Of a stretch of DNA of 64,000 nt, positions 3 to 49,100 are shown one piece after another. The first letter of the stretch is position 1; every line of letters begins with the position of its first letter. The stretch covers positions 18,645,432-18,709,431 of the forward strand of contig NC_092679.1 in NCBI RefSeq assembly GCF_964355755.1. Reading direction: 5' to 3'. Source of the DNA: Antedon mediterranea. Taxonomy: Eukaryota; Animalia; Echinodermata. A model generated the notes under the pieces. That model did not search any database, was not told the DNA's origin, and worked only from the letters and a program-made list of their open reading frames with translations. Made by a program: the position numbers and the translations under genes.

Positions 3-1082
3 TTATTTAATAATTTCAGTCGCGTTGTAATAGTAGGTTTCCACATGCTGTGAAGCAACTGTAATATTGTAAAATTGGACTTCATCAATCAAGCCATAAA
101 AATAACGCCTGTTGCTGCCATGTGCTGTTCCAATAACGACTGGGTTAGAATTGATCGGTATAGGACCAGAGCAACAATCAGACTGACCAGATTGTATCTC
201 TGCATTGACATAAAACGCTAGGCAACTTCCATTGTAGGTTAAAACCAAATGTCGCCACACTCCAAATTGAGTCACAGGAACATATTCGAATCTAGAAATA
301 GATCGGAATAAAGTAAAAAGTGATACAAATAAATTATTAGGACCAAGTTTGAATTCAAATTCACCATCGTCCCGGAAACCATTATTCAAAATAAACTGTT
401 GGTTATCACCTCCTTCCAAACCTTTATACCACAAACTAACTGTAAATTCTGATCCAAAATCAAAATGACTAAACTCGTCAACAACAACTCTTTGAGAGCC
501 AGTGAAGTTGGCGGCTAATCCACTTACACCAGTTGTGTATGTTAAGTCTGTACCATTAGATCTTCCATGGCGTTCATTGCCAGATGTATCTTTGACGTCA
601 CACTCAAACGCGTAATAAGCAAGTAAATACTGGTTCTCTCCAACCAAGAGATTGTCATAGTTGCCACTTTGCGTACTGGACTCAGTTTTCAGACAATTAG
701 TTGACAATTCAGATTCCATTATATGATCTTCACCTGATACATCATCATCCATCTCGAATTGAGTACTAGACTCATTTTCCAGTCCATTAGTTGAGGATTC
801 CATACTTTGAAATTCTTCATCTGACGTCATGACACTATTTTGTTGATTTTCATTAAATTGGTGATGAGCAACCAGTTGATATTCGTTGCAAACATCATCC
901 ACACTCTTTTTAAGAAACTTAAATTTAACACTGGAACATATAATGCACTTTGAAAGTAACACTACCTCCAACATACATTTCTCTCGATCAGCCAGTTTCA
1001 CTAATTTTTGGTCGCTTGTACATTTACCATTTACGGCAAATATTCCAAGAGCTACGATCAGCGTTAACGAACTGCAATACAT
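3..1082 (-). CDS. Secreted LamG/ConA-like (pentraxin-like) protein, subtype A, copy 1 (359 aa)
   Basis: Intact ORF with hydrophobic signal peptide (MYCSSLTLIVALGIFAVNG), Cys-rich module and acidic repeats. LamG_3-type motifs follow: LLAYYAFE..DTSGN, FTVSLW, WRHLVLTYNG..FYVN, IG...YFYGLIDEVQFYN. Confidence 0.85.
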   Translation of the reverse strand: MYCSSLTLIVALGIFAVNGKCTSDQKLVKLADREKCMLEVVLLSKCIICSSVKFKFLKKSVDDVCNEYQLVAHHQFNENQQNSVMTSDEEFQSMESSTNGLENESSTQFEMDDDVSGEDHIMESELSTNCLKTESSTQSGNYDNLLVGENQYLLAYYAFECDVKDTSGNERHGRSNGTDLTYTTGVSGLAANFTGSQRVVVDEFSHFDFGSEFTVSLWYKGLEGGDNQQFILNNGFRDDGEFEFKLGPNNLFVSLFTLFRSISRFEYVPVTQFGVWRHLVLTYNGSCLAFYVNAEIQSGQSDCCSGPIPINSNPVVIGTAHGSNRRYFYGLIDEVQFYNITVASQHVETYYYNATEIIK

Positions 1083-1085
1083 AAT

Positions 1086-1559
1086 CTAATGAAACAAAGA
1101 ATAAATGCCGCATACGTGGTAGTTTTCAGTGAATATGAATTTTGTAAAAATAAACTTGTAAATTAATAATAATGAACAAAACTAAGTTCTGCATTGACAA
1201 AATGTTTATAAAAAAAAAAAAAAATCAACGAAGATTTACATATACAAATATACGAGATTTAAAATAATTAATAGTTGAGAGGCTATCCACATTGAAATGT
1301 CTAAATATAAACAAAAGTAATGAAGAACTGTGCGTTTAAACCAAGGACTAACTAGAAAATCTAACAAATGCTTTATAAATATTAGCGATTTATGAAGTTC
1401 AGATAAACAGATAAATTACCAAATTTATGAAAATACGATAACTTGTCGAGGCCTACAGTAGGCCTACTTTAAATTAAACCTTAACCAACGTTGTCAATAG
1501 GTAAACTAACAAGTACATGTCTGTTTTACTTTGTTGAAAGAATTATGGAACTAACTTAC
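1086..1559 (-). other. Predicted 5'-UTR intron of array gene copy 1 (acceptor conserved in all copies that retain their 5' end)
   Basis: Minus strand reads ttctttgtttcattAG|ATT ATG, placing an acceptor 3 nt before the ATG; B/E types read ttttatcAG|ATTATG. Candidate donor GTAAGT at 1559-1554. Confidence 0.6.
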
Positions 1560-1679
1560 AAATGTGTAGTTTGATACCAAACCGACGCATTACATGAGCA
1601 CTACTGGATACTCTATCTTTAGTATTGATTACTTTCGTAGGTAATAACTGGTTTTGTTTCCTCAATGAGTATACTGATA

Positions 1680-1860
1680 TACGTTTACATGAAAAAATGA
1701 CAAACACACAAAAAGATTATTAACCTCTATTGTGTCAAAATGAAAAAATATCGAGCTTTAATTGGTTACAGGCAATGACAATGCTATCTTATTCGTGTTT
1801 AATTAAACCTCAATGAGTGTCAGGTTTTGGATGCATCGACAATCAATCCGCCCAAACGTC
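1680..1860 (-). promoter_or_regulatory. Putative promoter block of array genes (CCAAT box, TTTACATG motif, GC box)
   Basis: ttaattggtta (CCAAT on minus, 1761-1765) and tttacatg recur upstream of divergent subtypes (e.g. ~10103, 21337, 33470, 37769, 42743, 48116) while the surrounding sequence diverges; ccgccc at ~1848. Confidence 0.45.
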
Positions 1861-2097
1861 CTCTAGAGGAAAACACTGCTAATCGACAAGGGTGTGGGCC
1901 GGTGGTGGACAATGTGGTTAGAAGTATATGTGATTGCCGGAGTTTTTCTTGGGAATGGTGTAACATGATAAATGTCCATTATTTAACATTTTGATATTTA
2001 CATATTTATTTTTAAAAATCAAGAAAGTATAAAACAAGAGTTAGAATAAACATTTGATACAAAAAATAAATAAATATCTTCACTAATTATTTTGTAG

Positions 2098-2976: not shown

Positions 2977-3057
2977 AACTATTTTGTAGAATTTGTTTAA
3001 TATTCTCCGCAATAACACAAAACCAATAAACATAAACAATTGATTTGCAATAAATGA

Positions 3058-3781: not shown

Positions 3782-3830
3782 TTAAATTTCAATCACATTA
3801 TAATAATAGGCTTCCACTTGTTGTGATGTC
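3782..3830 (-). pseudogene. Last ~16 codons of a deleted subtype B gene (deletion junction)
   Basis: ttaaatttcaatcacattataataataggcttccacttgttgtgatgtc matches the B-gene 3' end (7924-7972), then switches abruptly to the A-type downstream spacer. Confidence 0.75.
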
Positions 3831-4190: not shown

Positions 4191-5267
4191 TTATTTAATA
4201 ATTTCAGTCGCGTTGTAATTATAGTAGGTTTCCACATACTGTGAAGCAACTGTAATATTGTAAAATTGAACTTCATCAATCAAGCCATAAAAATAACGGC
4301 CGTTGCTGCCATGTGCTGTTCCAATACCGACTGGGTTAGAATTGATCGGTATAGGACCAGAGCAACAATCAGACTGACCAGATTGTATCTCTGCATTGAC
4401 ATAAAACGCTAGGCAACTTCCATTGTAGGTTAAAACCAAATGTCGCCACACTCCAAATTGAACCACAGGAACATATTTGAATCTAGATTTGATTAAAGTA
4501 AAAAGTGATACCAATAAAGTATTAGGACCAAGTCTGAATTCAAATTCACCATCTTCCCGGAAACCATTATTCAAAATAAACTGTTGGTTATCACCTCCTT
4601 CCAAACCTTTATACCACAAACTAACTGTAAATTCTGATCCAAAATCAAAATTACTAAACTCGTCAACAACAACTCTCTGAGAGCCAGTGAAGTTGGCGGC
4701 TAATCCACTTACACCAGTTGTGTATGTTAAGTCTGTACCATGAGATCTTCCATGGCGTTCATTGCCAGATGTATCTTTGACGTCACACTCAAACGCGTAA
4801 TAAGCAAGTAAATACTGGTTCTCTCCAACCAAGAGATTGTCATGGTTGCCACTTTGCGTACTGGACTCAGTTTTCAGACAATTAGTTGACAATTCAGATT
4901 CCATTATATGATCTTCACCTGATACATCATCATCCATCTCGAATTGAGTACTAGACTCATTTTCCAGTCCATTAGTTGAGAATTCCATACTTTGAAATTC
5001 TTCATCTGACGTAATGACACTATTTTGTTGATTTTCATTAAATTGGTGATGAGCAACCAGTTGATATTCGTTGCAAACATCATCCACACTCTTTTTAAGA
5101 AACTTAAATTTAACACTGGAACGTATAATGCACTTTGAAAGTGAAACTACCTCCAACATACATTTCTCTCGATCAGCCAATTTCACTAGTTTTTGGTCGC
5201 TTGTACATTTACCGTTTACGGCAAATATTCCAAGAGCTACGATCAGCGTAAACGAACTGCAATACAT
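4191..5267 (-). CDS. Secreted LamG-like protein, subtype A, copy 2 (358 aa)
   Basis: Intact ORF, close paralogue of copy 1, with a D-type variable loop (TLLVSLFTLIKSRFKY). Confidence 0.85.
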   Translation of the reverse strand: MYCSSFTLIVALGIFAVNGKCTSDQKLVKLADREKCMLEVVSLSKCIIRSSVKFKFLKKSVDDVCNEYQLVAHHQFNENQQNSVITSDEEFQSMEFSTNGLENESSTQFEMDDDVSGEDHIMESELSTNCLKTESSTQSGNHDNLLVGENQYLLAYYAFECDVKDTSGNERHGRSHGTDLTYTTGVSGLAANFTGSQRVVVDEFSNFDFGSEFTVSLWYKGLEGGDNQQFILNNGFREDGEFEFRLGPNTLLVSLFTLIKSRFKYVPVVQFGVWRHLVLTYNGSCLAFYVNAEIQSGQSDCCSGPIPINSNPVGIGTAHGSNGRYFYGLIDEVQFYNITVASQYVETYYNYNATEIIK

Positions 5268-7923: not shown

Positions 7924-9129
7924 TTAAATTTCAATCACATTATAATAATAGGCTTCCACTTGTTGTGATGTCACAGAACTATTGTAAAATTGGACTTCGT
8001 CAATCAAGCCATAGAAATAACGTTCGATCTTTTTATGTGCTGTTCCAATAACGATTGGGTTAGGATTGATTGGTATAGGACCAGAGCAACAGTCAGACTG
8101 ACCAGAGCAACAGCCAGACTGACCAGCTTGTATTTGTGCATTGACATATACAGCTGCGTAAATGCCGTTATAGGTTAAAACCACATGTCGCCACACTCCA
8201 AATTGAACCACAGGCTTATACTTAAATCTAGATTCACGTCGGGTAAAAAGTAATACTGTTAAATTAGGATCATTCATCATATGACCAAGTTTAATTTCAA
8301 TTTCACCATCCTCATGGAAACCATTATTCAAAATAAACTGTTTACGATCACCTCTTTCGAAACTTTTATACCACAGACTAACCGTAAATTCTAATCCAAA
8401 ATCAAAGTTACTGAACTCATCTACAACAATGCTCTGAGAGCCAGTGAAGTTGGCGGCTAGACCACTTACACCAGTTGTGTATGTTAAGTCTGTACCATTA
8501 GATCTTCCATGGCGTTCATTGCCAGATGTATCTTTGACGTCACACTCAAATGCGTAATAAGCAAGTAAGTACTGGTTCTCTCCAACCAAGACATTGTGTT
8601 GATGGGTGTCAGTTTGAGTACTAGACTCACCTTCCAGACAATTAGTTGACAATTCAAATTCCATTGTATGAACTTCATTTGATGTCACGACATCATCATT
8701 CATCTCCGATTGTGTACTAAACTCGTTTTCCAGACCATTAGTTAAGGATTCCGTTAATACCATTGTATTACGACCGTCTTCATCTGATGTCATATTACCA
8801 TTCATCTCGGATTGAGTACAAGACTCATTTCCCAGACCATTAGTTGAGGATTCCGTTTCTATTATATTTGTATTATCAACTCCTTCATTTTGATTCTCAT
8901 TGAATCGGTTAGCCAAACCAAAGCCAATCAGTTGATATTTATTGCAAACATCATCCGTTTTAACATGGGAATATGTAATGCATTTTGATAGTGAAACCAC
9001 TTTCAACATACATTTCTCCAGATCTGCCAATTTCACCAGTTTTTGGTTGTTTCCACATTTTGTTTGACGTTTACCATTTACGTCAAAAATTGAAAGAACC
9101 ACGATCAACGTTAACACGCTGTAATACAT
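7924..9129 (-). CDS. Secreted LamG-like protein, subtype B, copy 3 (401 aa from the ATG at 9129)
   Basis: Intact ORF beginning MYYSVLTLIVVLSIF; the ORF track's MFYQI extension lies in the acceptor region. Distinct loops (GHMMNDPNL, HKKIER) and a 7-aa duplication GQSGCCS-GQSDCCS. Confidence 0.85.
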   Translation of the reverse strand: MYYSVLTLIVVLSIFDVNGKRQTKCGNNQKLVKLADLEKCMLKVVSLSKCITYSHVKTDDVCNKYQLIGFGLANRFNENQNEGVDNTNIIETESSTNGLGNESCTQSEMNGNMTSDEDGRNTMVLTESLTNGLENEFSTQSEMNDDVVTSNEVHTMEFELSTNCLEGESSTQTDTHQHNVLVGENQYLLAYYAFECDVKDTSGNERHGRSNGTDLTYTTGVSGLAANFTGSQSIVVDEFSNFDFGLEFTVSLWYKSFERGDRKQFILNNGFHEDGEIEIKLGHMMNDPNLTVLLFTRRESRFKYKPVVQFGVWRHVVLTYNGIYAAVYVNAQIQAGQSGCCSGQSDCCSGPIPINPNPIVIGTAHKKIERYFYGLIDEVQFYNSSVTSQQVEAYYYNVIEI

Positions 9130-11660: not shown

Positions 11661-13605
11661 TTATTGTTATCCGATTACCGTTTACCGCTATCACTCGTCT
11701 GTGTAAATCTGCCTTTAAAGATGTATTTTCACCCAATCAGACTCTCAATAGTCCGTTTTGCAGTTTTAATAAAGTTATTCACTTCTGATTTCACATATAA
11801 AGCCAAACGTAACGATTAATTTTAAACAAAAAAACATTTTCTGATAAACAATTTTAGTTTTTTTTCTTTAAATTACTTTTTTTTAAGAAAAATTATTTTT
11901 TTTTCCAAAAGAATAGTAGTTATTTATCGTAAAGTGGAATAATTATTACAGTCTGCCGTTTTCTTTTTATGTTGCCATCTTGTATAAGATCAGGGATAAG
12001 AGCTACAGAAAATGTCTTTATCCAGTTAGCTGCTGCTGACTGAATTCCATTTGACAGACAAAAACCTTCTTTCTTTCTTTCCACCAATGGCGAAAACGAC
12101 TACTAGTTGCGAACAAGACATTTGATGAAATCTCCACCTGGTCTATCTTGTCCGGCTTATCTTCTAATTCGTATCTTGTTCATGAGTTTTTGATCGGAGG
12201 TCGGGAAGGGGCTAATTGGACCATCTGTATGCTAAATCATCCTTCTGGGAATTAAAGTTTTTTTTGCGGGGAATTTTAATCATATAATTTATTTTCTATT
12301 TATTCAGAGACTAGGGTTCGCACGGTCTTCAAACTTGGTTTCGGTATAAGAAAAAAAAACGAGTTAGGCCGTCAAGGTCAAATATCAAAATGTTCAAATT
12401 GCTCCGATCGAGCTGAAACTTGGTTGCTTGTATATTCACGTCAAATATTCAAAGAAAAAAAAAACTCCGCAATACATAATCTAGTGAAAAAAAAAATGAT
12501 GGTGGATATGCATGGTTTTCTGTAAAAATGTGAACTTAAAGACATAAACTTGTAAATTAACGATAAATGAACACAATTTTGACAAAATGTACACAAAATA
12601 GAAATACCAATAGAAAAACATATAGAAACATACGGGTTTACAAACAATTAATAGGTGAGAGGCTATATCCACATTGATTGAAATGCAAATATAACAAATG
12701 TAATATAGGAACGATCAGTACATACCAAGGACCAACTAGAAAACGCAACGCAACAAATTCTTTTAAACTTTTGGATTAAGTTTAGATAAACATATACATT
12801 TACCAAATTTATGAAAATACGCTAACTTGTTGAGGCCTACTTTAAGTTCCAAACTAACGTACTGTACTGTACATATCTTTCTAATTTTTGAAGAGAATCA
12901 TGAAACTAACTTACAAATGTGTAGTTTGATCCAATTGACAATTTAAATGATTTTTAATGACTTTAATATTGATCACTTTTGTAGATAATAACTACTCTTT
13001 TGTTTTCTCAAATGGATATACATTTACATGGCCAAATAACAAACAAAAAGATTAACCACTATTGTGTAAAAATCAAAAATAAATCGAGCTTTAATCAAAA
13101 GTAAGATTAAACATTTAATAAAATACAAAACTGTATAACAATCTATTCTCCGCAATAACACAAAGTTTTCATCTAGTAAGCATAATCAATTGATTTCCAA
13201 TAAATGCGATTTATTATTTCGTTTGGTGTATCACATCATTGGTAATACCCAAAGAAATTGATTTACAATGATTTACAATTTACCAAGCATTTTTATACAA
13301 TACATAAAAACCCTTCTGAACAATAAACGCCTCGAGGCGTTTATCCAAATAGAATACAGTATCTTCATTTTCATCTTAACACGATTTTCAATAAATGCGA
13401 TTTCTTTTTTCTTTCAGACGTCACATTATTTCTAGTTCAGATATATATCTATGTAAACCAGCTTCTTTTCTTAAATATTCTACCAAAAGCAATTAATTCA
13501 CAATTACAGTGTTAAAACTACTGACAGTATTTGACAAGCTAAATTAAAATTCTTAAAAATGTCTCTCAGCTAGCTATATTAGTTTATATGGTATGTTGGA
13601 CCATT

Positions 13606-14679
13606 TTATTTAATAATTTTAGTCACGTTGTAATAGTAGGTTTCCACATGCTGTGAAGCAACTGTAATATTGTAAAATTGGACTTCATCAATCAAGCCAT
13701 GAAAATAACGCCTGTTGCTGCCATGTGCTGTTCCAATAACGACTGGGTTAGAATTGATCGGTATAGGACCAGAGCAACAATCAGACTGACCAGATTGTAT
13801 CTCTGCATTGACATAAAACGCTAGGCAACTTCCATTGTAGGTTAAAACCAAATGTCGCCACACTCCAAATTGAACCACAGGAACATATTCGAATCTAGCT
13901 TCGATTAAAGTAAAAAGTGATACAAATAAATTATTAGGACCAAGTTTGAATTCAAATTCACCATCGTCCCGGAAACCATTATTCAAAATAAACTGTTGGT
14001 TATCACCTCCTTCCAAACCTTTATACCACAAACTAACTGTAAATTCTGATCCAAAATCAAAATTACTAAACTCGTCAACAACAACTCTCTGAGAGCCAGT
14101 GAAGTTGGCGGCTAATCCACTTACACCAGTTGTGTATGTTAAGTCTGTACCATTAGATCTTCCATGGCGTTCATTGCCAGATGTATCTTTGACGTCACAC
14201 TCAAACGCGTAATAAGCAAGTAAATACTGGTTCTCTCCAACCAAGAGATTGTCATGGTTGCCACTTTGCGTACTGCACTCAGTTTTCAGACAACTAGTTG
14301 ACAATTCAGATTCCATTATATGATCTTCACCTGATACATCATCATCCATCTCGAATTGAGTACTAGACTCATTTTCCAGTCCATTAGTTGAGGATTCCAT
14401 ACTTTGAAATTCTTCATCTGACGTAATGACACTATTTTGTTGATTTTCATTAAATTGGTGATGAGCAACCAGTTGATATTCGTTGCAAACATCATCCACA
14501 CTCTTTTTAAGAAACTTAAATTTAACACTGGAACATATAATGCACTTTGAAAGTGAAACTACCTCCAACATACATTTCTCTCGATCAGCCAATTTCACTA
14601 GTTTTTGGTCGCTTGTACATTTACCATTTACGGCAAATATTCCAAGAGCTACGATCAGCGTTAACGAACTGCAATACAT
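13606..14679 (-). CDS. Secreted LamG-like protein, subtype A, copy 4 (357 aa)
   Basis: Intact ORF; variable loop LFTLIEARFEY. Confidence 0.85.
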   Translation of the reverse strand: MYCSSLTLIVALGIFAVNGKCTSDQKLVKLADREKCMLEVVSLSKCIICSSVKFKFLKKSVDDVCNEYQLVAHHQFNENQQNSVITSDEEFQSMESSTNGLENESSTQFEMDDDVSGEDHIMESELSTSCLKTECSTQSGNHDNLLVGENQYLLAYYAFECDVKDTSGNERHGRSNGTDLTYTTGVSGLAANFTGSQRVVVDEFSNFDFGSEFTVSLWYKGLEGGDNQQFILNNGFRDDGEFEFKLGPNNLFVSLFTLIEARFEYVPVVQFGVWRHLVLTYNGSCLAFYVNAEIQSGQSDCCSGPIPINSNPVVIGTAHGSNRRYFHGLIDEVQFYNITVASQHVETYYYNVTKIIK

Positions 14680-15688
14680 AATCTAATGAAACAAAGAATA
14701 AATGCCGCATACGTGGTAGTTTTCAGTGAATATGAATTTTGTAAAAATAAACTTGTAAATTAATAATAAATGAACAAAACTAAGTTCTGCATTGAAAAAA
14801 TGTATATAAAAAAAAAATAAATCAACGAAGATTTACATATACAAATATACGAGTTTTAAAATAATTAATAGTTGAGAGGCTATCCACATTGAAATGTCTA
14901 AATATAAACAAAAGTAATGAAGAACTGTGCGTTTAAACCAAGGACTAACTAGAAAATCTAACAAATGCTTTATAAATATTAGCGATTTATGAAGTTCAGA
15001 TAAACAGATAAATTACCAAATTTATGAAAATACGATAACTTGTCGAGGCCTACAGTACTTTAAATTAAACCTTAACCAACGTTGTCAATAGGTAAACTAA
15101 CAAGTACATGTCTGTTTTACTTTGTTGAAAGAATTATGGAACTAACTTACAAATGTGTAGTTTGATACCAAACCGACGCATTACATGAGCACTACTTGAT
15201 ACTCTATCTTTAATATTGATCACTTTCGTAGGTAATAACTTGTTTTGTTTCCTCAATGAGTATACTGATATACGTTTACATGAAAAAATGACAAACACAC
15301 AAAAAGATTATTAACCTCTATTGTGTCAAAATGAAAAAATATCGAGCTTTAATTGGTTACAGGCAATGACAATGCTATCTTATTCGTGTTTAATTAAACC
15401 TCAATGAGTGTCAGGTTTTGGATGCATCGACAATCAATCCGCCCAAACGTCCTCTAGAGGAAAACACTGCTAATCGACAAGGGTGTGGGCCGGTGGTGGA
15501 CAATGTGGTTAGAAGTATATGTGATTGCCGGAGTATTTCTTGGGAATGGTGTAACGTGATAAATGTTCATTATTTAACATTTTGATATTTACATATTTAT
15601 TTTTAAAAATCAAGAAAGTATAAAACAAGAGTTAGATTAAACATTTGATACAAAAAATAAATAAATATCTTCACTAACTATTTTGTAG

Positions 15689-25096: not shown

Positions 25097-25177
25097 AACT
25101 ATTTTGTAGAATTTGTTTAATATTCTCCGCAATAACACAAAACCAATAAACATAAACAATTGATTTGCAATAAATGA

Positions 25178-29062: not shown

Positions 29063-29697
29063 TTATTTAATAATTTCAGTCGCGTTGTAATAGTAGGTTT
29101 CCACATACTGTGAAGCAACTGTAATATTGTAAAATTGGACTTCATCAATCAACCCATAAAAATAACGGCCATTGCTGCCATGTGCTGTTCCAATAACGAC
29201 TGGGTTAGAATTGATCGGTATAGGACCAGAGCAACAATCAGACTGACCAGATTGTATCTCTGCATTGACATAAAACGCTAGGCAACTTCCATTGTAGGTT
29301 AAAACCAAATGTCGCCACACTCCAAATTGAGTCACAGGAAAATATTTGAATCTAGAATTAGATCGGAATAAAGTAAAAAGTGATACAAATAAATTATTAG
29401 GACCAAGTTTGAATTCAAATTCACCATCGTCCCGGAAACCATTATTCAAAATAAACTGTTGGTTATCACCTCCTTCCAAACCTTTATACAATGCACAAAC
29501 TAATTGTAAATTCTGATCCAAAATCAAAATTACTAAACTCGTCAACAACAACTCTCTGAGAGCCGGTGAAGTTGGCGGCTAATCCACTTACACCAGTTGT
29601 GTATGTGAAGTCTGTACCATTAGATCTTCATGGCGTTCATTGCCAGATGTATCATTTACGTCACCCTCAAATGCGTAATAAGCAAGTAAATAGTCGT
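29063..29697 (-). pseudogene. Chimeric LamG-like pseudogene, copy 8, 3' part (A-type domain joined to C-type)
   Basis: A-type LamG C-terminus with frameshifts near 29490 and 29628; the 5' side matches C-type 43860-43938; cut by a TE at 29698. Confidence 0.8.
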
Positions 29698-31238: not shown

Positions 31239-31242
31239 TTAA

Positions 31243-31700
31243 ACATTGACTAATAGACACATTTTCTAGACCATTAGTTGCGGATTTAGTTTCCATTGTA
31301 CTGCCACCTTCATCTGGAGGATCCCGTTACCACCATTGTATTACGACCATCTTCATCTGACGTCATGTCAGTATCATTCATCTCGGATTGAGTACTAGAC
31401 TCATTTTCCAGACCATTAGTTGAGGATTCCGTTACCGCCATTGTATTACGACCATCTTCATCTGACGTCATGTCAGTATCATCCATCACGGTTTGAGTAA
31501 TAGACTCATTTTCCAGTTTATTAGTTGAGGATTCCGTTACCATGATAGGCCTATTTGTATTATCAGCACAATCATCTGATTTTATGGGCCAAGTACGGAG
31601 CAACAAACTGATATTCATTGGAAAAATTAAAATTAACACTGGGATAGCAAATGCATTTTGTACTAAAGATCAACATACATTTATCGCGACCAGCCATTTT
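31243..31700 (-). pseudogene. C-type pseudogene, 5' part of copy 8 (acidic repeats, no signal peptide)
   Basis: ORF 31310-31639 has TESST..ENES..TSDEDGRNTM repeats; N-terminus truncated; duplicate at 43941-44398. Confidence 0.75.
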
Positions 31701-31744: not shown

Positions 31745-32725
31745 TTATGGTATCCGAGTAATATTATAGTAGTAGGCTTCTACTTGTTGTGACGACACAG
31801 AACTATTGTAAAACTGGACTTCATCAATCAAGCCATAAAAATAACGTTCGTTGTTGCCATGTGCTGTTCCAATAACGACTGGGTTAGAATTGATCGGTAT
31901 AGGACCAGAGCAACAATCAGACTGACCAGATTGTATCTCTGCATTGACATAAAACGCTAGGCAACTTCCATTGTAGGTTAAAACCAAATGTCGCCACACT
32001 CCAAATTGAACCACAGAAAGATATTTGAATCTAGATTTGATTAAAGTAAAAAGTGATACCAATAAAGTATCAGTACCTAGTTTAAATTCAAATTCACCAT
32101 CTTCCCGGAAACCATTATTCAAAATGAACTGTTGGTTATCACCTCCTTCCAAACGTTTATACCACAGACTAACCGTAAATTCTGATCCAAAATCAAAGTT
32201 ACTGAACTCATCAACAACAATGCTCTGAGAGCCAGTGAAGTTGGCGGCTAGACCACTTACACCAGTTGTGTATGTTAAGTCTGTACCATTAGATCTTCCA
32301 TGGCGTCCAATGCCAGATGTATCATTTACGTCACTCTCAAACGCGTAATAAGCAAGTAAATACTGGTTCTCTTCAACCAAGACATTGTCATGGTTGCCAG
32401 TTTGCGTACTGGAACCACCTTCCAGACCATTAGTTGACGATTCTGTTACCATTGTATTCTGACCATTTTCATCTGACGTCACAAAATCAGTAAGTTGATT
32501 TTTATTGAATTCTTGAGCCAAATAAGGAGCATTCACTTTCCCTTTTAGTGACTTAAATCTAAAACTGTGATACCAAATCCATTTTGAAACTACTTTCAAA
32601 ATACATTCCTCCCGATCAGCCAATTTCACCAGTTTCTGGTCGTTTCCACATTTTATTTCATGTTGTATACCATTTACGAGATGTATTTTCAGAACCACGA
32701 TCAACGTTAACACGCTGCAATACAT
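31745..32725 (-). CDS. Secreted LamG-like protein, subtype D, copy 9 (326 aa, shortest stalk)
   Basis: Intact ORF with signal peptide, about one acidic repeat, and the LamG domain. Confidence 0.85.
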   Translation of the reverse strand: MYCSVLTLIVVLKIHLVNGIQHEIKCGNDQKLVKLADREECILKVVSKWIWYHSFRFKSLKGKVNAPYLAQEFNKNQLTDFVTSDENGQNTMVTESSTNGLEGGSSTQTGNHDNVLVEENQYLLAYYAFESDVNDTSGIGRHGRSNGTDLTYTTGVSGLAANFTGSQSIVVDEFSNFDFGSEFTVSLWYKRLEGGDNQQFILNNGFREDGEFEFKLGTDTLLVSLFTLIKSRFKYLSVVQFGVWRHLVLTYNGSCLAFYVNAEIQSGQSDCCSGPIPINSNPVVIGTAHGNNERYFYGLIDEVQFYNSSVSSQQVEAYYYNITRIP

Positions 32726-34011: not shown

Positions 34012-35400
34012 TTAAATTTCAACCACATTATAATAATAGGCTTCCACTTGTTGCGACGACACAGAACTATTGTAAAATTGAACTTCGTCAATCAAGCCAT
34101 AGAAATAACGATCGTTCCTGCCATATGCTGTTCCAATAATGAATGGGTTAGGATTTATCGGTATAGAACCAGAGCAACAGTCAGACTGACCAGATTGCGT
34201 TTCTGCATTGACATAAAACGCTAGGTAACTGCCGTTATAGGTTAAAACCATATGTCGCCACGCTCCAAATTGAACCACAGGCACATATTTAAAGTTACTT
34301 TCCAATCGGGTAAAAATTGATACACATAAAATATTACTTTTTGAAAGTTTAAGTTCAAATTCACCATCCACACGGTAACCATTATTCAAGATATACTGTT
34401 TGTCATCGCCTCCTTCCAAACGTTTAAACCACAAACTAACCGTAAATTCTGATCCAAAATCAAAGTTACTGAACTCATCAACAACAATGCTCTGAGAACC
34501 AGTGAAGTTGGCGGCTAAACCACTTATACCAGTTGTGTATGTTAAGTCTGTACCATAAGACCTTCCATGGCGTTCATTGTCAGATGTATCATTTATGTCA
34601 CTCTCGAATGCGTAATAAGCAAGTAAATACTGGTTTTCTCCAACCAAGACACTGTCAGTAGTTAAACATTGACTAGTAGACTCATTTTCCTGACCATTAG
34701 TTGCGGATTCCGTTTCCATTGTACTGCCAACTTCACCTGACGTCATGACAGTATCATTCATCTCGGATTGAGTACTAGACTCATTTTCCAGTTCATTAGT
34801 TGATGATCCCGTTACCACCATTGTATTACGACCATCTTCATCTGATGTCATATTATCATCCATCTCGGATTGAGTACTAGACTCATTTTCCAGACCATTA
34901 GTTGATGATCCCGCTACCACCAATGTATTACGACCATCTTCATCTGATGTCATATTATCATCCATCTCGGATTGAGTACTAGACTCATTTTCCAGACCAT
35001 TAGTTGAGGATTCTGTTACCACCAATGTATTACGACCATCTTCATCTGATGTCATATTATCATCCATCTCGCTTTGAGTACTAGACTCATTTTCCAGACC
35101 ACTAGTTGAGGATTCCGTTTCTATTCTATTTGTATTATCAACTCCTTCATTTTGATTCTCATTGAATCGGTTAGCCAAACCAAAGCCAATCAGTTGATAT
35201 TTATTGCAAACATCATCATCCCTTTTAAATTTAACATGGGAATATGTAATGCATTTTGAAAGTGAAACCACCTCCAACATACATTTCTCTAGACCATCCA
35301 ATTTCACCAGTTTTTGGTTGTTTCCACATTTTGTTTGACGTTTACCATTTACGTCAAAAATTGCAAGAACCACGATCAACGTTAACACGCTGTAATACAT
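34012..35400 (-). CDS. Secreted LamG-like protein, subtype E, copy 10 (462 aa, longest stalk)
   Basis: Intact ORF with about five ~34-aa acidic repeats and loops YRVDG..LSKSNILCVSIF and YGRNDR. Confidence 0.85.
   Translation of the reverse strand: MYYSVLTLIVVLAIFDVNGKRQTKCGNNQKLVKLDGLEKCMLEVVSLSKCITYSHVKFKRDDDVCNKYQLIGFGLANRFNENQNEGVDNTNRIETESSTSGLENESSTQSEMDDNMTSDEDGRNTLVVTESSTNGLENESSTQSEMDDNMTSDEDGRNTLVVAGSSTNGLENESSTQSEMDDNMTSDEDGRNTMVVTGSSTNELENESSTQSEMNDTVMTSGEVGSTMETESATNGQENESTSQCLTTDSVLVGENQYLLAYYAFESDINDTSDNERHGRSYGTDLTYTTGISGLAANFTGSQSIVVDEFSNFDFGSEFTVSLWFKRLEGGDDKQYILNNGYRVDGEFELKLSKSNILCVSIFTRLESNFKYVPVVQFGAWRHMVLTYNGSYLAFYVNAETQSGQSDCCSGSIPINPNPFIIGTAYGRNDRYFYGLIDEVQFYNSSVSSQQVEAYYYNVVEI
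34680..35120 (-). repeat. Coding 102-bp (34-aa) tandem repeat
   Basis: TESSTNGLENESSTQSEMDDNMTSDEDGRNTLVV-type units; copy 12 is exactly 68 aa (two units) shorter. Confidence 0.9.
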
Positions 35401-36097: not shown

Positions 36098-37172
36098 TTA
36101 TTGTTCAGTGATGTTGTAATAGTAGGTTTCTACGTTTTTTGACGACACAAAACTATTATAAAATTTGATTTCATCAATCAAGCCATAGAAATAACGTTCG
36201 TTGCTGCCTTGTGCTGTTCCAATAACGACTGGGTTAGGATTGATCGGTATAGGACCAGAGCAACAATCAGACTGACCAGCTTGTATCTCTGCATTGACAT
36301 AAAACGCTAGGCAACTTCCATTGTAGGTTAAAACCAAAATGTCGTCACACTCCAAATTGAACCACATGAACATACTTGAATCTAGATCGGAATACAGTAA
36401 AAAGTGATACCAATAAATTATTAGGACCTAGTTTGAATTCAAATTCACCATCTTCCCGGAAACCATTATTCACAATATACTGTTTGTCATCACCTCCTTC
36501 CAAACGTTTATACCACAAACTAACCGTAAATTCTGATCCAAAATCAAAGTTACTGAACTCATCAACAACAATGCTCTGAGAACCAGTGAAGTTGGCGGCT
36601 AAACCACTTACACCAGTTGTGTATGTTAAGTCTGTACCATTAGATCTTCCATGGCGTTCATTGCCAGATGTATCTTTGACGTCACACTCAAACGCGTAAT
36701 AAGAAAGTAAATACTGGTTCTCTCCAACCAAGAGACTGTCATGGTTGCCAGTTTGCGTACTGGACTTAGTTTCCAGACAATGAGTTGACAATTCAAATTC
36801 CATTGTATGATCTTCACCTGATGTCACGACATCATCATCCATCTCGAATTGTGTACTAGACTCATTTTCCAGTCCATTAGTTGAGGATTCCATACTTTGA
36901 AATTCTTCATCTGACGTCATGACACTATTTTGTTGATTCTCATTAAATTGGTAAGGAGCAACTAGTTTATATTCGTTGCAAACATCATCCACACTCTTTT
37001 TAAGAAACATACATTTAACATTGGAAAACCTAATGCATGTTTAAAGTGAAACTACCTCCAACATACATTTCTCTCGATCAGCCAATTTCACTAGTTTTTG
37101 GTCGCTTGTACATTTACCATTTACGGCAAATATTCCAAGAGCTATGATCAGCGTTGACAAACTGCAATACAT
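36098..37172 (-). pseudogene. Subtype F LamG-like pseudogene, copy 11
   Basis: ATG at 37172, in-frame TAA at ~37041-37043, and a +1 frameshift at ~36337 (WRH region). Confidence 0.85.
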
Positions 37173-39181: not shown

Positions 39182-40366
39182 TTAAATTTCAGCCACATTA
39201 TAATAATAGGCTTCCACTTGTTGCGACGACACAGAACTATTGTAAAATTGAACTTCGTCAATCAAGCCATAGAAATAACGATCGTTCCTACCATATGCTG
39301 TTCCAATAATGACTGGGTTAGGATTTATCGGTATAGAACCAGAGCAACAGTCAGACTGACCATATTGCGTTTCTGCATTGACATAAAACGCTAGGTAACT
39401 GCCGTTATAGGTTAAAACCATATGTCGCCACGCTCCAAATTGAACCACAGGCACATATTTAAAGTTACTTTCCAATCGGGTAAAAATTGATACACATAAA
39501 ATATTACTTTTTGAAAGTTTAAGTTCAATTTCACCATCCACACGGTAACCATTATTCAAAATATACTGTTTGTCATCACCTCCTTCCAAACGTTTATACC
39601 ACAAACTAACCGTAAATTCTAATCCAAAATCAAAGTTACTGAACTCATCAACAACAATTCTCTGAGAACCAGTGAAGTTGGCGGCTAATCCACTTACACC
39701 AGTTGTGTAGGTTAAGTCTGTACCATTAGATCTTCCATGGCGTTCATTGCCAGATGTATCATTTATGTCACTCTCGAATGCGTAATAAGCAAGTAAATAC
39801 TGGTTCTCTCCAACCAAGACACTGTCAGTAGTTAAACATTGACTAGTAGACTCATTTTCCTGACCATTAGTTGCGGATTCCGTTTCCATTGTACTGCCAA
39901 CTTCACCTGACGTCATGACAGTATCATTCATCTCGGATTGAGTACTAGACTCATTTTCCAGACCATTAGTTGAGGATTCTGTTACCACCAATGTATTACG
40001 ACCATCTTCATCTGATGTCATATTATCATCCATCTCGCTTTGACGACTAGACTCATTTTCCAGACCACTAGTTGAGGATTCCGTTTCTATTCTATTTGTA
40101 TTATCAACTCCTTCATTTTGATTCTCATTGAATCGGTTAGCCAAACCAAAGCCAATCAGTTGATATTTATTGCAAACATCATCATCCCTTTTAAATTTAA
40201 CATGGGAATATGTAATGCATTTTGAAAGTGAAACCACCTCCAACATACATTTCTCTAGACCATCCAATTTCACCAGTTTTTGGTTGTTTCCACATTTTGT
40301 TTGACGTTTACCATTTACGTCAAAAATTGCAAGAACCACGATCAACGTTAACACGCTGTAATACAT
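39182..40366 (-). CDS. Secreted LamG-like protein, subtype E, copy 12 (394 aa)
   Basis: Intact ORF; same as copy 10 minus two repeats, with patchy LamG differences. Confidence 0.85.
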   Translation of the reverse strand: MYYSVLTLIVVLAIFDVNGKRQTKCGNNQKLVKLDGLEKCMLEVVSLSKCITYSHVKFKRDDDVCNKYQLIGFGLANRFNENQNEGVDNTNRIETESSTSGLENESSRQSEMDDNMTSDEDGRNTLVVTESSTNGLENESSTQSEMNDTVMTSGEVGSTMETESATNGQENESTSQCLTTDSVLVGENQYLLAYYAFESDINDTSGNERHGRSNGTDLTYTTGVSGLAANFTGSQRIVVDEFSNFDFGLEFTVSLWYKRLEGGDDKQYILNNGYRVDGEIELKLSKSNILCVSIFTRLESNFKYVPVVQFGAWRHMVLTYNGSYLAFYVNAETQYGQSDCCSGSIPINPNPVIIGTAYGRNDRYFYGLIDEVQFYNSSVSSQQVEAYYYNVAEI

Positions 40367-41046: not shown

Positions 41047-42123
41047 TTATTGTTCAGTGATGTTGTAATAGTAGGTTTCTACGTTTTTTGACGACACAAA
41101 ACTATTATAAAATTTTATTTCATCAATCAAGCCATAGAAATAACGTTCGTTGCTGCCTTGTGCTGTTCCAATAACGACTGGGTTAGGATTGATCGGTATA
41201 GGACCAGAGCAACAATCAGACTGACCAGCTTGTATCTCTGCATTGACATAAAACGCTAGGCAACTTCCATTGTAGGTTAAAACCAAATGTCGCCACACTC
41301 CAAATTGAACCACAGAAACATATTTGAATCTAGATTTGATTAAAGTAAAAAGTGATACCAATAAAGTATTAGTACCTAGTTTAAATTCAAATTCACCATC
41401 TTCCCGGAAACCATTATTCAAAATATACTGTTTGTCATCGCCTCGATCACCTCTTTCCAAACGTTTAAACCACAAACTAACCGTAAATTCTGATCCAAAA
41501 TCAAAGTTACTGAACTCATCAACAACAATGCTCTGAGAGCCAGTGAAGTTGGCGGCTAAACCACTTACACCAGTTGTGTATGTTAAGTCTGTACCATTAG
41601 ATCTTCCATGGCGTTCATTGCCAGATGTATCATTTACGTCACTCTCAAACGCGTAATAAGCAAGTAAATACTGGTTCTCTCCAACCAAACCATTGTCATG
41701 GTTGCCACTTTGCGTACTGGACTCAGTTTTCAGACCATTAGTTGACAATTCAGATTCCATTATATGATCTTCACCTGATACATCATCATCCATCTCGAAT
41801 TGAGTACTAGACTCATTTTCCAGTCCATTAGTTGAGGATTCCATACTTTGAAATTCTTCATCTGACGTCATGACATTATTTTGTTGATTTTCATTAAATT
41901 GGTGAGGAGCAACCAGTTGATATTCGTTGCAAACATCATCCACACTCTTTTTAAGAAACTTACATTTAACACTGGAACATATAATGCACTTTGAAAGTGA
42001 AACTACCTCCAACATACATTTCTCTCGATCAGCCAATTTCACTAGTTTTTGGTCGCTTGTACATTTACCGTTTACGGCAAATATTCCAAGAGCTACGATC
42101 AGCGTTAACGAACTGCAATACAT
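41047..42123 (-). CDS. Secreted LamG-like protein, mosaic A/E/B/D/F, copy 13 (358 aa)
   Basis: Intact ORF with A-type N-terminus, ERGDRGDDKQY hybrid loop, D-type loop and F-type C-terminus. Confidence 0.85.
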   Translation of the reverse strand: MYCSSLTLIVALGIFAVNGKCTSDQKLVKLADREKCMLEVVSLSKCIICSSVKCKFLKKSVDDVCNEYQLVAPHQFNENQQNNVMTSDEEFQSMESSTNGLENESSTQFEMDDDVSGEDHIMESELSTNGLKTESSTQSGNHDNGLVGENQYLLAYYAFESDVNDTSGNERHGRSNGTDLTYTTGVSGLAANFTGSQSIVVDEFSNFDFGSEFTVSLWFKRLERGDRGDDKQYILNNGFREDGEFEFKLGTNTLLVSLFTLIKSRFKYVSVVQFGVWRHLVLTYNGSCLAFYVNAEIQAGQSDCCSGPIPINPNPVVIGTAQGSNERYFYGLIDEIKFYNSFVSSKNVETYYYNITEQ

Positions 42124-43636: not shown

Positions 43637-44398
43637 TTACATTTCACATTATAATAATAGGCTTCCACTTGTTGTGATGTCACAGAACTATTGTAAAATT
43701 GGACTTCGTCAATCAAACCATAAAAATCAGACTGACCAGGTTGTATTTGTGCATATTGACATATACAGCTGCGTCAATGCCGTTGTAGGTTGAAACCAAA
43801 TGTCGCCACACTCCAAATCGAACCGCAGGCTCATACTTAAAGTTATAGTTAGATCAGGTGAGATCTTCCATGGCGTTCATTGCCAGATGTATCATTTACG
43901 TCACCCTCAAATGTGTAATAAGCAAGTAAATAGTCGTTAAACATTGAGTAATAGACACATTTTCTAGACCATTAGTTGCGGATTTAGTTTCCATTGTACT
44001 GCCACCTTCATCTGGAGGATCCCGTTACCACCATTGTATTACGACCATCTTCATCTGACGTCATGTCAGTATCATTCATCTCGGATTGAGTACTAGACTC
44101 ATTTTCCAGACCATTAGTTGAGGATTCCGTTACCGCCATTGTATTACGACCATCTTCATCTGACGTCATGTCAGTATCATCCATCACGGTTTGAGTAATA
44201 GACTCATTTTCCAGTTTATTAGTTGAGGATTCCGTTACCATGATAGGCCTATTTGTATTATCAGCACAATCATCTGATTTTATGGGCCAAGTACGGAGCA
44301 ACAAACTGATATTCATTGGAAAAATTAAAATTAACACTGGGATAGCAAATGCATTTTGTACTAAAGATCAACATACATTTATTGCGACCAGCCATTTT
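43637..44398 (-). pseudogene. C-type pseudogene, copy 14, multiple internal deletions
   Basis: Fragmented B-like LamG 3' end (43637-43845), GN.RHGRS fragment, and acidic repeats (ORF 44008-44337). Confidence 0.8.
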
Positions 44399-44442
44399 AA
44401 CCCGAAAAAGAACTTAATGGGCAGAAAACGCGGCCTTATTAC

Positions 44443-45423
44443 TTATGGTATCCGAGTAATATTATAGTAGTAGGCTTCTACTTGTTGTGACGACACAGAA
44501 CTATTGTAAAACTGGACTTCATCAATCAAGCCATAAAAATAACGTTCGTTGTTGCCATGTGCTGTTCCAATAACGACTGGGTTAGAATTGATCGGTATAG
44601 GACCAGAGCAACAATCAGACTGACCAGATTGTATCTCTGCATTGACATAAAACGCTAGGCAACTTCCATTGTAGGTGAAAACCAAATGTCGCCACACTCC
44701 AAATTGAACCACAGAAACATATTTGAATCTAGATTTGATTAAAGTAAAAAGTGATACCAATAAAGTATTAGTACCTAGTTTAAATTCAAATTCACCATCT
44801 TCCCGGAAACCATTATTCAAAATGAACTGTTGGTTATCACCTCCTTCCAAACGTTTATACCACAAACTAACCGTAAATTCTGATCCAAAATCAAAGTTAC
44901 TGAACTCATTAATAACAATTCTCTGAGAGCCAGTGAAGTTGGCGGCTAAACCACTTATACCAGTTGTGTATGTTAAGTCTGTACCATTAGATCTTCCATG
45001 GCGTCCAATGCCAGATGTATCATTTACGTCACTCTCAAACGCGTAATAAGCAAGTAAATACTGGTTCTCTTCAACCAAGACATTGTCATGGTTGCCAGTT
45101 TGCGTACTGGAACCACCTTCCAGACAATTAGTTGACGATTCTGTTACAATTGTATTCTGACTATTTTCATCTAACGTCACAAAATCAGTAAGTTGATTTT
45201 TATTGAATTCTTGAGCCAAATAAGGAGCATTCACTTTCCCTTTCAGTGACTTAAATCTAAAACTGTGATACCAAATGCATTTTGAAACTACTTTCAAAAT
45301 ACCTTCCTCCCGATCAGCCAATTTCACCAGTTTCTGGTCGTTTCCACATTTTATTTCATGTTGTATTCCATTTACGAGATGTATTTTCAGAACCACGATC
45401 AACGTGAACACGCTGCAATACAT
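44443..45423 (-). CDS. Secreted LamG-like protein, subtype D, copy 15 (326 aa)
   Basis: Intact ORF, paralogue of copy 9 at offset 12698. Confidence 0.85.
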   Translation of the reverse strand: MYCSVFTLIVVLKIHLVNGIQHEIKCGNDQKLVKLADREEGILKVVSKCIWYHSFRFKSLKGKVNAPYLAQEFNKNQLTDFVTLDENSQNTIVTESSTNCLEGGSSTQTGNHDNVLVEENQYLLAYYAFESDVNDTSGIGRHGRSNGTDLTYTTGISGLAANFTGSQRIVINEFSNFDFGSEFTVSLWYKRLEGGDNQQFILNNGFREDGEFEFKLGTNTLLVSLFTLIKSRFKYVSVVQFGVWRHLVFTYNGSCLAFYVNAEIQSGQSDCCSGPIPINSNPVVIGTAHGNNERYFYGLIDEVQFYNSSVSSQQVEAYYYNITRIP

Positions 45424-46609: not shown

Positions 46610-47555
46610 CTATGGAGTTTGAGTCGTATTGTTATAGTCTTCCACGTTTTGCGACGTCAAAAAAACACTGTAAAATTTGACTTCATCAATCAATCCATAA
46701 TAGAAAAGATCGATCTTGTTTTTTACTGTTCCAATAACGACTGGGTTCGGATTGATCAGTATAGAACCAGAGCAGTCACACTGACCTGATTGCATCTCTC
46801 CATTTACATAAAATGGTGTGTAACTGCTGTTGTACGTTCAAACCACATGTTGCCTCATTCCATATTGAACCATTGGCGTATACAGAAATTTACTAAAATT
46901 AGGATGGGTAAAAATTGATCCATGTACCTTTTTATGACCCATTCTTATTTCAAATTCACCATCATCACAGTACCCATTACTCAAAATGTACTGATAGTTT
47001 TTACCCGATGCAAATTGTTTATACCACAAACTAACCGTAAATTCTGATCCAAAATCAAAGTTACTGAACTCATCAACAACAATGCTCTGAGAGCCAGTGA
47101 AGTTGGCGGCTAAACCACTTACACCAGTTGTGTATGTTAAGTCTGTACCATTAGATCTTCCATGGCGTTCATTGCCTGATGTACTGTATCTTTGACGTCA
47201 CCCTCAAACGGGTAACAAGCAAGTAAATACTGTTTCTCTCCAACCAAGACATTGTCAGTAGTTAAATGATGAGAACTTGACTCATTTTCCAGACCATTAG
47301 TTGAGGATTTCGTCACGACATATCATGTTGATTCTCAATAAATTGGTAAGCCAAGTATGGAGCAACAAGTTGATATTCATTCTTTTCAAGAAACTTTAAA
47401 TTAACACTGGGATACCAAATGCATTTTGTACTAAAGATCAACATACAATTATCGTGATCAGCCAGTTTTCGGTTGTTTCCACATATTATTTGATCTGTAC
47501 CATTTACAACAAATACTTCCAACACCAGGATCAACGTTGAAAAACTGCAATACAT
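46610..47555 (-). pseudogene. Divergent subtype G LamG-like pseudogene, copy 16
   Basis: Collinear fragments 47313-47555, 46838-47029 and 46610-46795, separated by stops and frameshifts. Confidence 0.85.
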
Positions 47556-48380
47556 AATCTAATAAACAAAACAATAAATACTGACTAATGAACAATTGTA
47601 AAAATTAATCTTTTTGATTTGATTATTTTTTACATTTTTGCTAGCATTTAATGCTAAAGTGGAATTATGTTATAGGCATTCAAAAGGAATAAACCTCAGA
47701 GAGAGATGAAAGACCTAATTGACAGAAATACTTGGAACATTTTGTAACACTTACAGTATCAAGGTTTATTTATATATATATAAAACTGACTAATAGACTC
47801 ATTTTCAGACCATTAGTTGAGGATTCCGTCACAACATTATCATGTTGATTCTCATTGTATCTGATATAATAACTAATACAACAAGTAATGATTATTCCTA
47901 CTAACATTTTTATGTTAAAAGGATTTGTGAAAAACATTACTTACAAATATTGTATGATACCAGCCGTCGCAATAAATAGATAAATGATTACTTTTGACAA
48001 TTAAAACATTAATATTGATTACTTTCATGTACAGTAGTATTATTTACATGACAAAATGATGAACACAAAAAGATGATCAATTACTATTGTGTAAAAATGA
48101 ACAATTCCAGATTAAATTGGTGACAGACAATGACAAAGATGGTCGATCTTTATTTGTGTCCCGGTAAATTCAACGAGTGTCAAGTTTTGGGTCAAACATT
48201 GACCATCTATCTGCCCTGACCTCTAAAATAAAACACTATTGTCCTAAAATAGTAGTTTTCTATCTTTTTAAATAGCAGTGACAGGGCAAGATACACATAA
48301 TTTGTTCTTATGACCTTACAGTAAACTTCAACAACCCTAGCCTCACTGAAATCCCTGCCAAGCGGCTCGGGTAATGCAGT

Positions 48381-48480
48381 GTGTGATAGGGGTCTGTAGT
48401 GTGTGATAGGGGTCTGTAGTGTGTGATAGGGGTCTGTATGGTGTGATAGGGGTCTGTATGGTGTGATAGGGGTGTGTAGA
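48381..48480. repeat. 20-bp minisatellite, 5 units
   Basis: gtgtgataggggtctgta(gt/tg) x5. Confidence 0.9.
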
Positions 48481-48939
48481 GCATGGCTAGGGTGCGGTAC
48501 GATATGTAGACCGATAATTTGTGTCACTTGCCGCTGTCTTGCTAAAATACAACATTCTCAACATTTTCCGCCTTTGGTAAGTCGTAAAATACCCATATTT
48601 ACTATACAGTTACCAATATTTTTCAATTTTTTAATAGCGCCGAATTAGCTTAAGGCAATTTTTAAAATATAGCGGCTTCGAAGCTTTCAAAAATCATCCC
48701 GATATTTCATTTTTCCAAGTTGGGAGGTCTGGACACATGTAAAGCAATTAATGTACAATTAGTACTATATATAAAAAAACACATTTATAAAAGTGGTTGA
48801 TATTTGATGTTAATTATAGAGTTTAACTTAGTTTTTTAAATAACATAAAAAGCTATATCACAACCGATAAAAAAAAAACGTTTTACATGAATGTACTACA
48901 ATAGGTTTGGTACACAGTGATACCATTAAACCTGTTAAA

Positions 48940-49100
48940 GCAAAGTTTAAATTCAAATTCACCATCATCGCGGTACCCATTATTATCGACAAACACAGAT
49001 TGCATTCACTTTCTTCAAACTGACAAATTAGTTCAAAAAGTTAAAAGTTATTTATACAAGAATATTCTTTTTTGAGAGCCGGTGAACTTGGCATTTATAC
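48940..49100 (-). pseudogene. Highly decayed relic of the LamG family (copy 17)
   Basis: Minus translation VDNNGYRDDGEFEFKL (~48943-48990) and AKFTGSQ (~49072-49092), in the expected order and roughly the expected spacing. Confidence 0.7.

What the first reader, a model, noticed from the sequence alone, without database searches (positions are those of the whole stretch)
3..49100. Rapidly diversifying tandem array of ~17 secreted LamG/pentraxin-like genes: candidate undescribed recognition or matrix-protein system
Seen: co-oriented paralogues of about 7 subtypes (10 intact ORFs, ~7 pseudogenes or relics). Each has one coding exon encoding signal peptide + Cys module + acidic stalk + LamG-like domain, with no TM segment. 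Known: such birth-and-death arrays are typical of invertebrate immune, gamete-recognition, venom and adhesive/matrix families. Inference: this is a lineage-specific repertoire of secreted binding proteins; I do not recognise it as a named family. The array probably continues left of the window.
Basis: partly seen in the sequence, partly recalled or inferred. Interest (0 to 1): 0.85.

Follow-up and report, generated by a model that had tools for sequence, protein, structure and literature searches.

The report
Feather star secreted lectin-like gene array
A feather star chromosome carries a row of ten intact and seven broken copies of an unnamed gene for a predicted secreted protein with a lectin-fold head on an acidic stalk; the copies swap segments and differ most where the head likely grips its target, so they are probably a small repertoire of recognition proteins.

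Summary
The array is real. The window is from the crinoid Antedon mediterranea (source names). It holds 10 intact minus-strand ORFs, 4 full-length pseudogenes and 3 partial relics, plus small fragments. All 10 intact ORFs carry Pfam Laminin_G_3; none hits Pentaxin. Each has one coding exon behind a splice acceptor and a likely non-coding first exon. The family is older than the array: relatives with the same signal + Cys module + LamG3 layout occur at a second Antedon locus and in Anneissia, and the head belongs to an animal clade with sea star, hemichordate and amphioxus proteins (one fused to collagen, one to PAN/Apple). The predicted fold is closest to a bacterial sugar-binding module (5HON, Z 22.8). 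The scaffold is under purifying selection; the predicted cleft segments evolve at dN/dS about 1 and are shuffled by gene conversion. Positive selection was not shown (p=0.16). Best reading: a birth-and-death repertoire of secreted, lectin-like recognition proteins (0.45); matrix and gamete roles stay open. Expression and ligand are untested. An unnamed family of a familiar kind.

The parts
3..1082 (-). intact gene, subtype A (359 aa); CDS identical to 22123-23202
3782..3830 (-). last 49 nt of a deleted subtype-B gene
   Evidence: 100% to the B CDS end
4191..5267 (-). intact gene, subtype A (358 aa)
7924..9129 (-). intact gene, subtype B (401 aa); RefSeq model XP_071962032.1 adds MLKI from an upstream exon ending at 9499
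12469..13095 (-). relic: upstream element, intron, acceptor and ATG, coding exon lost
13606..14679 (-). intact gene, subtype A (357 aa); reference for residue numbers: signal 1-19, Cys module 20-76, stalk 77-146, LamG3 147-357
15273..15360 (-). conserved upstream element of 13606-14679: CCAAT box, likely non-coding first exon, CAT|GTAAA donor (inferred); a like donor precedes 13 of 14 start positions
17480..18688 (-). pseudogene, subtype B, one stop at codon 65
20720..21350 (-). relic: upstream element, intron, acceptor and ATG, coding exon lost
22123..23202 (-). intact gene, subtype A (359 aa)
26444..27636 (-). pseudogene, subtype B: start codon lost, stop at codon 13, frameshift in the head
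29063..29698 (-). relic, subtype A head only, frameshifted
31239..31700 (-). relic: Cys module and stalk repeats, no head
31745..32725 (-). intact gene, subtype D (326 aa, shortest stalk)
34012..35400 (-). intact gene, subtype C (462 aa); stalk holds 4.5 copies of a 102-bp (34-aa) repeat at 34668-35119
36098..37172 (-). pseudogene, subtype A: stop at codon 44, second stop and frameshift in the head
39182..40366 (-). intact gene, subtype C (394 aa); 2.5 stalk repeats
41047..42123 (-). intact mosaic gene (358 aa): A-type N-terminus, C-like codons 201-235, D-like codons 236-270
43644..44420 (-). relic: Cys module, stalk repeats and pieces of a head
44443..45423 (-). intact gene, subtype D (326 aa)
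46610..47555 (-). pseudogene, most divergent copy (subtype E), several stops and frameshifts
47784..47835 (-). stalk-repeat fragment in the intron of the E pseudogene
48910..48984 (-). head fragment, right end of the array
25169..26043 (.). 54-bp minisatellite (16.3 copies; also 3049-3386, 7187-7523, 16635-17079) at the edges of duplicated blocks

Best explanation
This is a tandem array of ten intact and seven broken paralogues encoding predicted secreted proteins whose LamG3 head likely works as a lectin-like recognition module for surface ligands, probably glycans of microbes or foreign cells. Shown: the gene count, the domain layout, purifying selection on the head's scaffold, mosaic copies, and stalk length set by a 34-aa repeat. 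Inferred: each gene has its own promoter and non-coding first exon; the signal peptide is cut after VNG; the acidic, N-glycosylated stalk holds the head away from a small basic Cys module that would anchor or cluster the chains; the head binds in its concave cleft. Unequal crossing-over makes and deletes copies, and gene conversion moves cleft segments between them, which would give heads of different specificity on one frame.
For: Pfam Laminin_G_3 in 10 of 10. Head model pLDDT 86; best solved match is AbnA domain 4 bound to arabinotriose, Z 22.8, rmsd 2.7, 193 aligned, tied within 1 Z with clostridial HcN-type domains; PTX3 16.6, laminin/neurexin LG 12-14. AbnA domain 4 binds arabinan in an aromatic concave cleft (PMC9110388, passages). 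The variable segments 236-270 and 313-326 align with its Trp-rich segments, and the two most variable sites (252, 259) with Trp752 and Trp758 by my count from a low-confidence stretch of the alignment. Scaffold dN/dS 0.27 and 0.18, both below 1 at p<=1e-4; the variable segments 0.84 and 1.28. Minimum changes 57 nonsynonymous/15 synonymous in 218-270 plus 313-326 against 43/36 elsewhere in the head, Fisher p=0.002, regions picked after seeing the data. Three young A copies differ at 9 nonsynonymous, 0 synonymous codons in 238-269. Recombination test p=0.0002. Relatives put the same head on carriers typical of recognition proteins: collagen + 2 heads in amphioxus, PAN/Apple + head in Patiria. 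Crinoids have a precedent in the intronless multi-copy secreted lectin OXYL (PMC6409975, abstract and section 2.2).
Against: Positive selection is not significant (M1a vs M2a p=0.16; variable segments not different from dN/dS 1, p=0.86), so relaxed constraint explains the pattern as well. A shared fold shows no function; identity to AbnA domain 4 is 20% and the array has few cleft aromatics and has lost the conserved YQG and W of its sea star and amphioxus relatives, so a glycan ligand is not established. No relative has a known function. Seven of 17 loci are broken; the Cys pattern is lost in subtype D; stalk and N-terminus evolve at dN/dS 0.97 and 0.76. The acidic repeat stalk fits a mineral or adhesive matrix protein as well.
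Confidence: 0.45

Rival explanations
1. Skeletal or adhesive matrix proteins: the acidic, phosphorylatable stalk binds calcium or mineral and the LamG3 head binds matrix, as in mollusc Pif/LamG3 proteins or sea urchin spicule-matrix lectins with repeats.
For: Stalk 16-23% D/E and 25-31% S/T with many S/T-x-x-D/E sites, varying by repeat number. LamG3 domains occur in mollusc shell matrix proteins in tandem clusters (PMC10543319, passages). Sea urchin skeletal lectins carry acidic repeats (PMC7351957, passages).
Against: No chitin-binding or VWA domain. LamG is not among the 17 prevalent groups of the Anneissia skeletal proteome (supplement 3); the 280-protein list could not be read (main supplement too large). 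The Anneissia relative's stalk is Ser/Thr/His-rich and the second Antedon locus has almost none. High gene turnover is less expected for a structural need.
Confidence: 0.22
2. Reproductive proteins: gamete recognition, egg coat or brood cement, diversifying by conflict between sexes or species.
For: Secreted, recently amplified, long stem branch (0.93) to the array, changes clustered in one part of the head. That Antedon glues eggs to its pinnules is recalled, not from a call.
Against: No significant positive selection; no known gamete-recognition domain.
Confidence: 0.15
3. A mostly neutral, decaying array: one or two copies do the work (or none any longer) and the rest are by-products of an unstable, minisatellite-flanked region.
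For: 7 of 17 loci broken plus five fragments; variable regions at dN/dS about 1; only 2 of 10 query proteins (two database proteins and eight window ORFs) are in the protein collection letter for letter.
Against: Purifying selection on the scaffold across four subtypes; upstream element and acceptor kept in all intact copies; 10 open frames despite synonymous divergence of about 0.3 between subtypes.
Confidence: 0.13
4. Part of the left half is an assembly duplication, so the true count is lower.
For: 1-3386 and 22121-25506 differ by one base.
Against: The other blocks differ by 2-5% and carry different lesions and minisatellite lengths.
Confidence: 0.05

Closest known systems
Uncharacterised crinoid proteins XP_071941674.1 (Antedon, another contig) and XP_033107812.1 (Anneissia japonica)
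   Same: Signal peptide, Cys module (C-x3-Q-x2-V-x9-C-x7-9-K-C), one LamG3 head, 42% head identity; one clade with the array, 100/99.
   Different: Short or non-acidic stalk; no function known; the array sits on a long branch. The Anneissia model holds three signal + Cys modules and may join several tandem genes.
AbnA domain 4, arabinan-binding module of Geobacillus (PDB 5HON)
   Same: Same fold over the whole head, Z 22.8, TM 0.77.
   Different: 20% identity, bacterial enzyme module, Trp-lined cleft that the array lacks.
Pentraxins (CRP, SAP, PTX3)
   Same: ConA-like superfamily; PTX3 also has an N-terminal extension before one head; Z 14-17.
   Different: No Pentaxin Pfam hit, no signature motif, Cys pattern differs.
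Mollusc Pif / LamG3 shell matrix proteins (PMC10543319)
   Same: Secreted, LamG3 domain, low-complexity regions, tandem clusters.
   Different: Defined by chitin-binding and often VWA domains, absent here.
OXYL C1q-domain lectins of comatulid crinoids (PMC6409975) and prawn Rlecs (PMC7536079)
   Same: Secreted multi-copy lectin families; intronless coding region (OXYL); repeat-number variation beside a lectin head (Rlecs; abstract only).
   Different: Different head folds (C1q, C-type lectin); analogues, not homologues.

Membership tests
ConA-like lectin/glucanase superfamily, Laminin_G_3 (PF13385) | Pfam score above the gathering cut-off over the whole model | tested here: met
   10 of 10, 58-77 bits against cut-off 27.6
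ConA-like lectin/glucanase superfamily, Laminin_G_3 (PF13385) | two-sheet beta-sandwich fold | tested here: met
   model pLDDT 86, 14 strands; Z 22.8 to 5HON
Pentraxins | Pentaxin domain PF00354 | tested here: not met
   0 of 10 at E<=1
Pentraxins | signature H-x-C-x-[ST]-W-x-[ST] (motif recalled, from no call) | tested here: not met
   0 of 10; WRHLVLTY-type motif instead
Pentraxins | ring oligomer with calcium-dependent binding | not testable with these tools
   needs purified protein
Laminin G / LNS domains (laminin, neurexin, agrin) | Laminin_G_1 or Laminin_G_2 match | tested here: not met
   0 of 10 at E<=1; Z 12-14 over about 145 residues only
Pif / LamG3 shell matrix proteins | chitin-binding domain, with or without VWA | tested here: not met
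   none in 10 of 10; definition from PMC10543319 passages
Pif / LamG3 shell matrix proteins | presence in mineral matrix | not testable with these tools
   no Antedon proteome here; Anneissia list only partly seen
Secreted lectin (works-like claim) | signal peptide, no membrane anchor | tested here: inconclusive
   hydropathy and VNG cleavage pattern fit; no signal-peptide predictor available
Secreted lectin (works-like claim) | binds carbohydrate | not testable with these tools
   fold and cleft mapping only
Diversifying recognition gene family | tandem duplication, pseudogenes, gene conversion | tested here: met
Diversifying recognition gene family | positive selection on the binding surface | tested here: inconclusive
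   M1a vs M2a p=0.16; dN/dS 0.95 for the variable segments; 9 sequences, recombining

The most novel reading that the evidence does not exclude
The head defines an overlooked class of deuterostome lectin domain, derived from a bacterial carbohydrate-binding module and mounted on collagen, PAN/Apple or Cys-stalk carriers like collectins and ficolins; in feather stars it forms a variable pattern-recognition repertoire whose binding cleft is reshuffled by gene conversion. The sister group of the animal clade is a pair of unnamed TSP3/PKD proteins that look bacterial (96/91), which allows but does not show transfer.
Probability: 0.2. Interest if true: 0.7.

Novelty: new variant of a known kind. 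Interest (0 to 1): 0.4.

Why it matters
Crinoid immunity, matrix and gamete biology are poorly mapped. If the reading holds, it adds a head domain other than C-type lectin, C1q, fibrinogen or pentraxin to the invertebrate recognition toolkit and gives a compact, testable case: four subtypes and natural mosaics that differ at a few cleft positions. If it fails, it remains an ordinary unannotated expansion: only 2 of the 10 queried proteins are on record.

Tried and rejected
Expression: no RNA holder listed; run X1, guessed RNA, covers intergenic repeats and runs unspliced through an acceptor, so it was treated as DNA; reads were laid on 29001-35800 only. Full-length fold with nine paralogues failed (pLDDT 26). 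Atlas search with the Cys module gave no usable hit. Word-index protein searches found only Antedon, Saccoglossus and unnamed or bacterial LamG proteins and missed relatives that the full search found, so they do not bound the family. Alternative last exons of one long gene: rejected because each copy has its own upstream element and the next gene upstream is a AAA ATPase ending near 49640. A membrane anchor: no C-terminal hydrophobic stretch. Toxin reading from clostridial HcN fold matches: 11-19% identity, superfamily-level only, no other toxin domain. Rfam: 0 matches. Synteny in relatives: no genome held. Earlier scan findings: none by place, sequence or words. Literature: searches listed no paper on this family; one search found none of six homologue ids in main texts; supplements and closed journals are not covered by those searches.
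Full report
Source and observation. Proteins encoded in the window are filed under Antedon mediterranea, a feather star, on a 25,047,721-base contig. Ten intact minus-strand ORFs of 326-462 aa lie between 3 and 45423. All ten carry one Pfam Laminin_G_3 domain at the C-terminus and none hits Pentaxin or Laminin_G_1/2 at E<=1. A truncated paralogue, XP_071963319.1, is on a contig of the same length and is at most 89% identical to any window segment, 83% over its length, so the family goes on outside the window.

Gene structure. All 14 positions with a start (one mutated) follow a pyrimidine tract and AG|ATT. A CAT|GTAA[AC] donor-like motif lies 240-930 bases upstream in 13 of 14, with a CCAAT box 63-94 bases before it in 11 of 14, conserved between subtypes whose introns have diverged. 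I infer a promoter and short non-coding first exon for each gene; this argues against alternative last exons of one gene. The RefSeq model of the B gene uses the same acceptor with another donor at 9498 and adds four residues; whether RNA supports that model I could not see.

Protein anatomy. Signal-like residues 1-19 end in VNG; a basic module of about 50 residues has 2-5 Cys; an acidic Ser/Thr stalk of 43-179 residues varies by a 34-aa repeat with N-glycosylation sequons; the head is 211 residues with a vicinal Cys pair; the C-terminus is not hydrophobic. Intact genes form four subtypes; heads are 78-100% identical.

Relatives. A full search with the head listed the best 150 of 28,377 hits, mostly long multi-domain proteins at 24-33% identity, so single-domain relatives below that list were not seen. 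Per domain, a group scores 66-151 bits (most above 83) against at most 65 for the rest: a second Antedon locus, Anneissia, Patiria (PAN/Apple + head), Acanthaster, Branchiostoma (collagen + two heads), Saccoglossus and unnamed records. In a tree of 41 domains (these, five window copies and 20 best other domains; three window-derived and two isoform records left out) the animal-type clade has support 100/97, the crinoid clade 100/99 and the array 100/100 on a stem of 0.93; two unnamed TSP3/PKD proteins are sister at 96/91 (midpoint root, no one-clade test). The Cys module aligns with those of the two crinoid relatives; alone the match is weak (E 0.08-0.5 among 175), but these are the top three non-self hits. 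So the layout is a crinoid family and the array is its Antedon expansion.

Structure. The head model has pLDDT 86, pTM 0.87. Best match is AbnA domain 4 (5HON), Z 22.8, rmsd 2.7, 193 aligned, 20% identity, tied with clostridial HcN-type domains; PTX3 scores 16.6 and LG domains 12-14. That domain binds arabinan in an aromatic concave cleft (PMC9110388, passages). No coordinates were available, so the placing of variable residues on the cleft rests on strand pattern, alternation and the profile alignment, where array sites 252 and 259 fall on Trp752 and Trp758 by my count, at alignment confidence of only about 0.4-0.5. The array lacks most of those aromatics.

Evolution. About 55% of head codons are nearly invariant. 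Segment dN/dS: 147-217 0.27 (p=1e-4 against 1), 327-350 0.18, 271-312 0.44 (p=0.08), 218-235 0.42 (p=0.21), 236-270 0.84, 313-326 1.28, stalk 0.97, signal + Cys 0.76. Three young A copies differ at 9 nonsynonymous and 0 synonymous codons in 238-269, scan p=0.006 with a window chosen afterwards; over the whole protein 25 and 6. The site test for positive selection is not significant (p=0.16; own implementation, nine sequences, gaps removed, one identical copy left out). Mosaicism is clear: 41047-42123 is 1.3% from A in its N-terminus, 1.9% from C in codons 201-235 and 1.9% from D in 236-270; incompatibility test p=0.0002. Blocks of 2-6.7 kb at 90-99.97% identity and a 54-bp minisatellite at block edges point to unequal crossing-over.

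Reality of the sequence. Contigs from four runs of two studies cover 29001-35800, unique flanks included; one study may be the source.

Mechanism. Most likely each intact gene makes a secreted stalked head that binds surface ligands, probably glycans, and copy turnover plus conversion vary the cleft (0.45). Count, layout, fold class, scaffold constraint and mosaicism are shown; secretion, ligand, oligomer and tissue are inferred. Matrix (0.22), reproductive (0.15), neutral decay (0.13) and partial assembly error (0.05) remain. For matrix: LamG is not among 17 prevalent groups of the Anneissia skeletal proteome (PMC7351957, passages and supplement 3), but the main supplement could not be read and may bear on this.

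Comparison and novelty. Not a pentraxin, LNS domain or Pif/LamG3 protein by the tests listed. It works like, by inference, multi-copy secreted lectin families such as crinoid OXYL (PMC6409975, abstract and section 2.2) and prawn Rlecs (PMC7536079, abstract). Eight literature searches (listings only, except the papers named) showed no description of the family. Arrays of this kind are common in marine invertebrates; what is new is the head subfamily and its crinoid layout. Verdict: real, unnamed, new variant of a known kind, interest 0.4.

Noticed in passing
window 49640-58200 and 60619-64000, minus strand: Two multi-exon housekeeping-type genes flank the array: a two-domain AAA ATPase and a pyruvate-carboxylase-type gene. 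Useful anchors for synteny.
   Followed up: partly
window 35127-35569: One contig of run X3 joins a C-type upstream region to an N-terminus lacking 9 bases like subtype B (13 other differences): perhaps a further mosaic copy or allele not in the window.
   Followed up: no
window 29682-31270 and 32860-33086: High-copy repeats (contig depth hundreds to thousands of times the genes') lie inside the array; not identified.
   Followed up: no
window 7924-9129, 17480-18688, 26444-27636: Subtype B has a 21-bp tandem duplication that doubles the vicinal Cys pair (GQSGCCS-GQSDCCS).
   Followed up: no
upstream of most copies, e.g. 15273-15290: The conserved donor-like motif also reads ATG-TAA on the sense strand; in unspliced RNA it would be a start-stop element.
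   Followed up: no
P0096 (XP_033107812.1, Anneissia): The model holds three signal + Cys modules before one head, which suggests several tandem genes merged by the annotation and so a second crinoid array.
   Followed up: partly
P0041, P0159 (unnamed records): TSP3/PKD proteins with two heads are the sister group of the animal clade; their source organism is unknown.
   Followed up: partly
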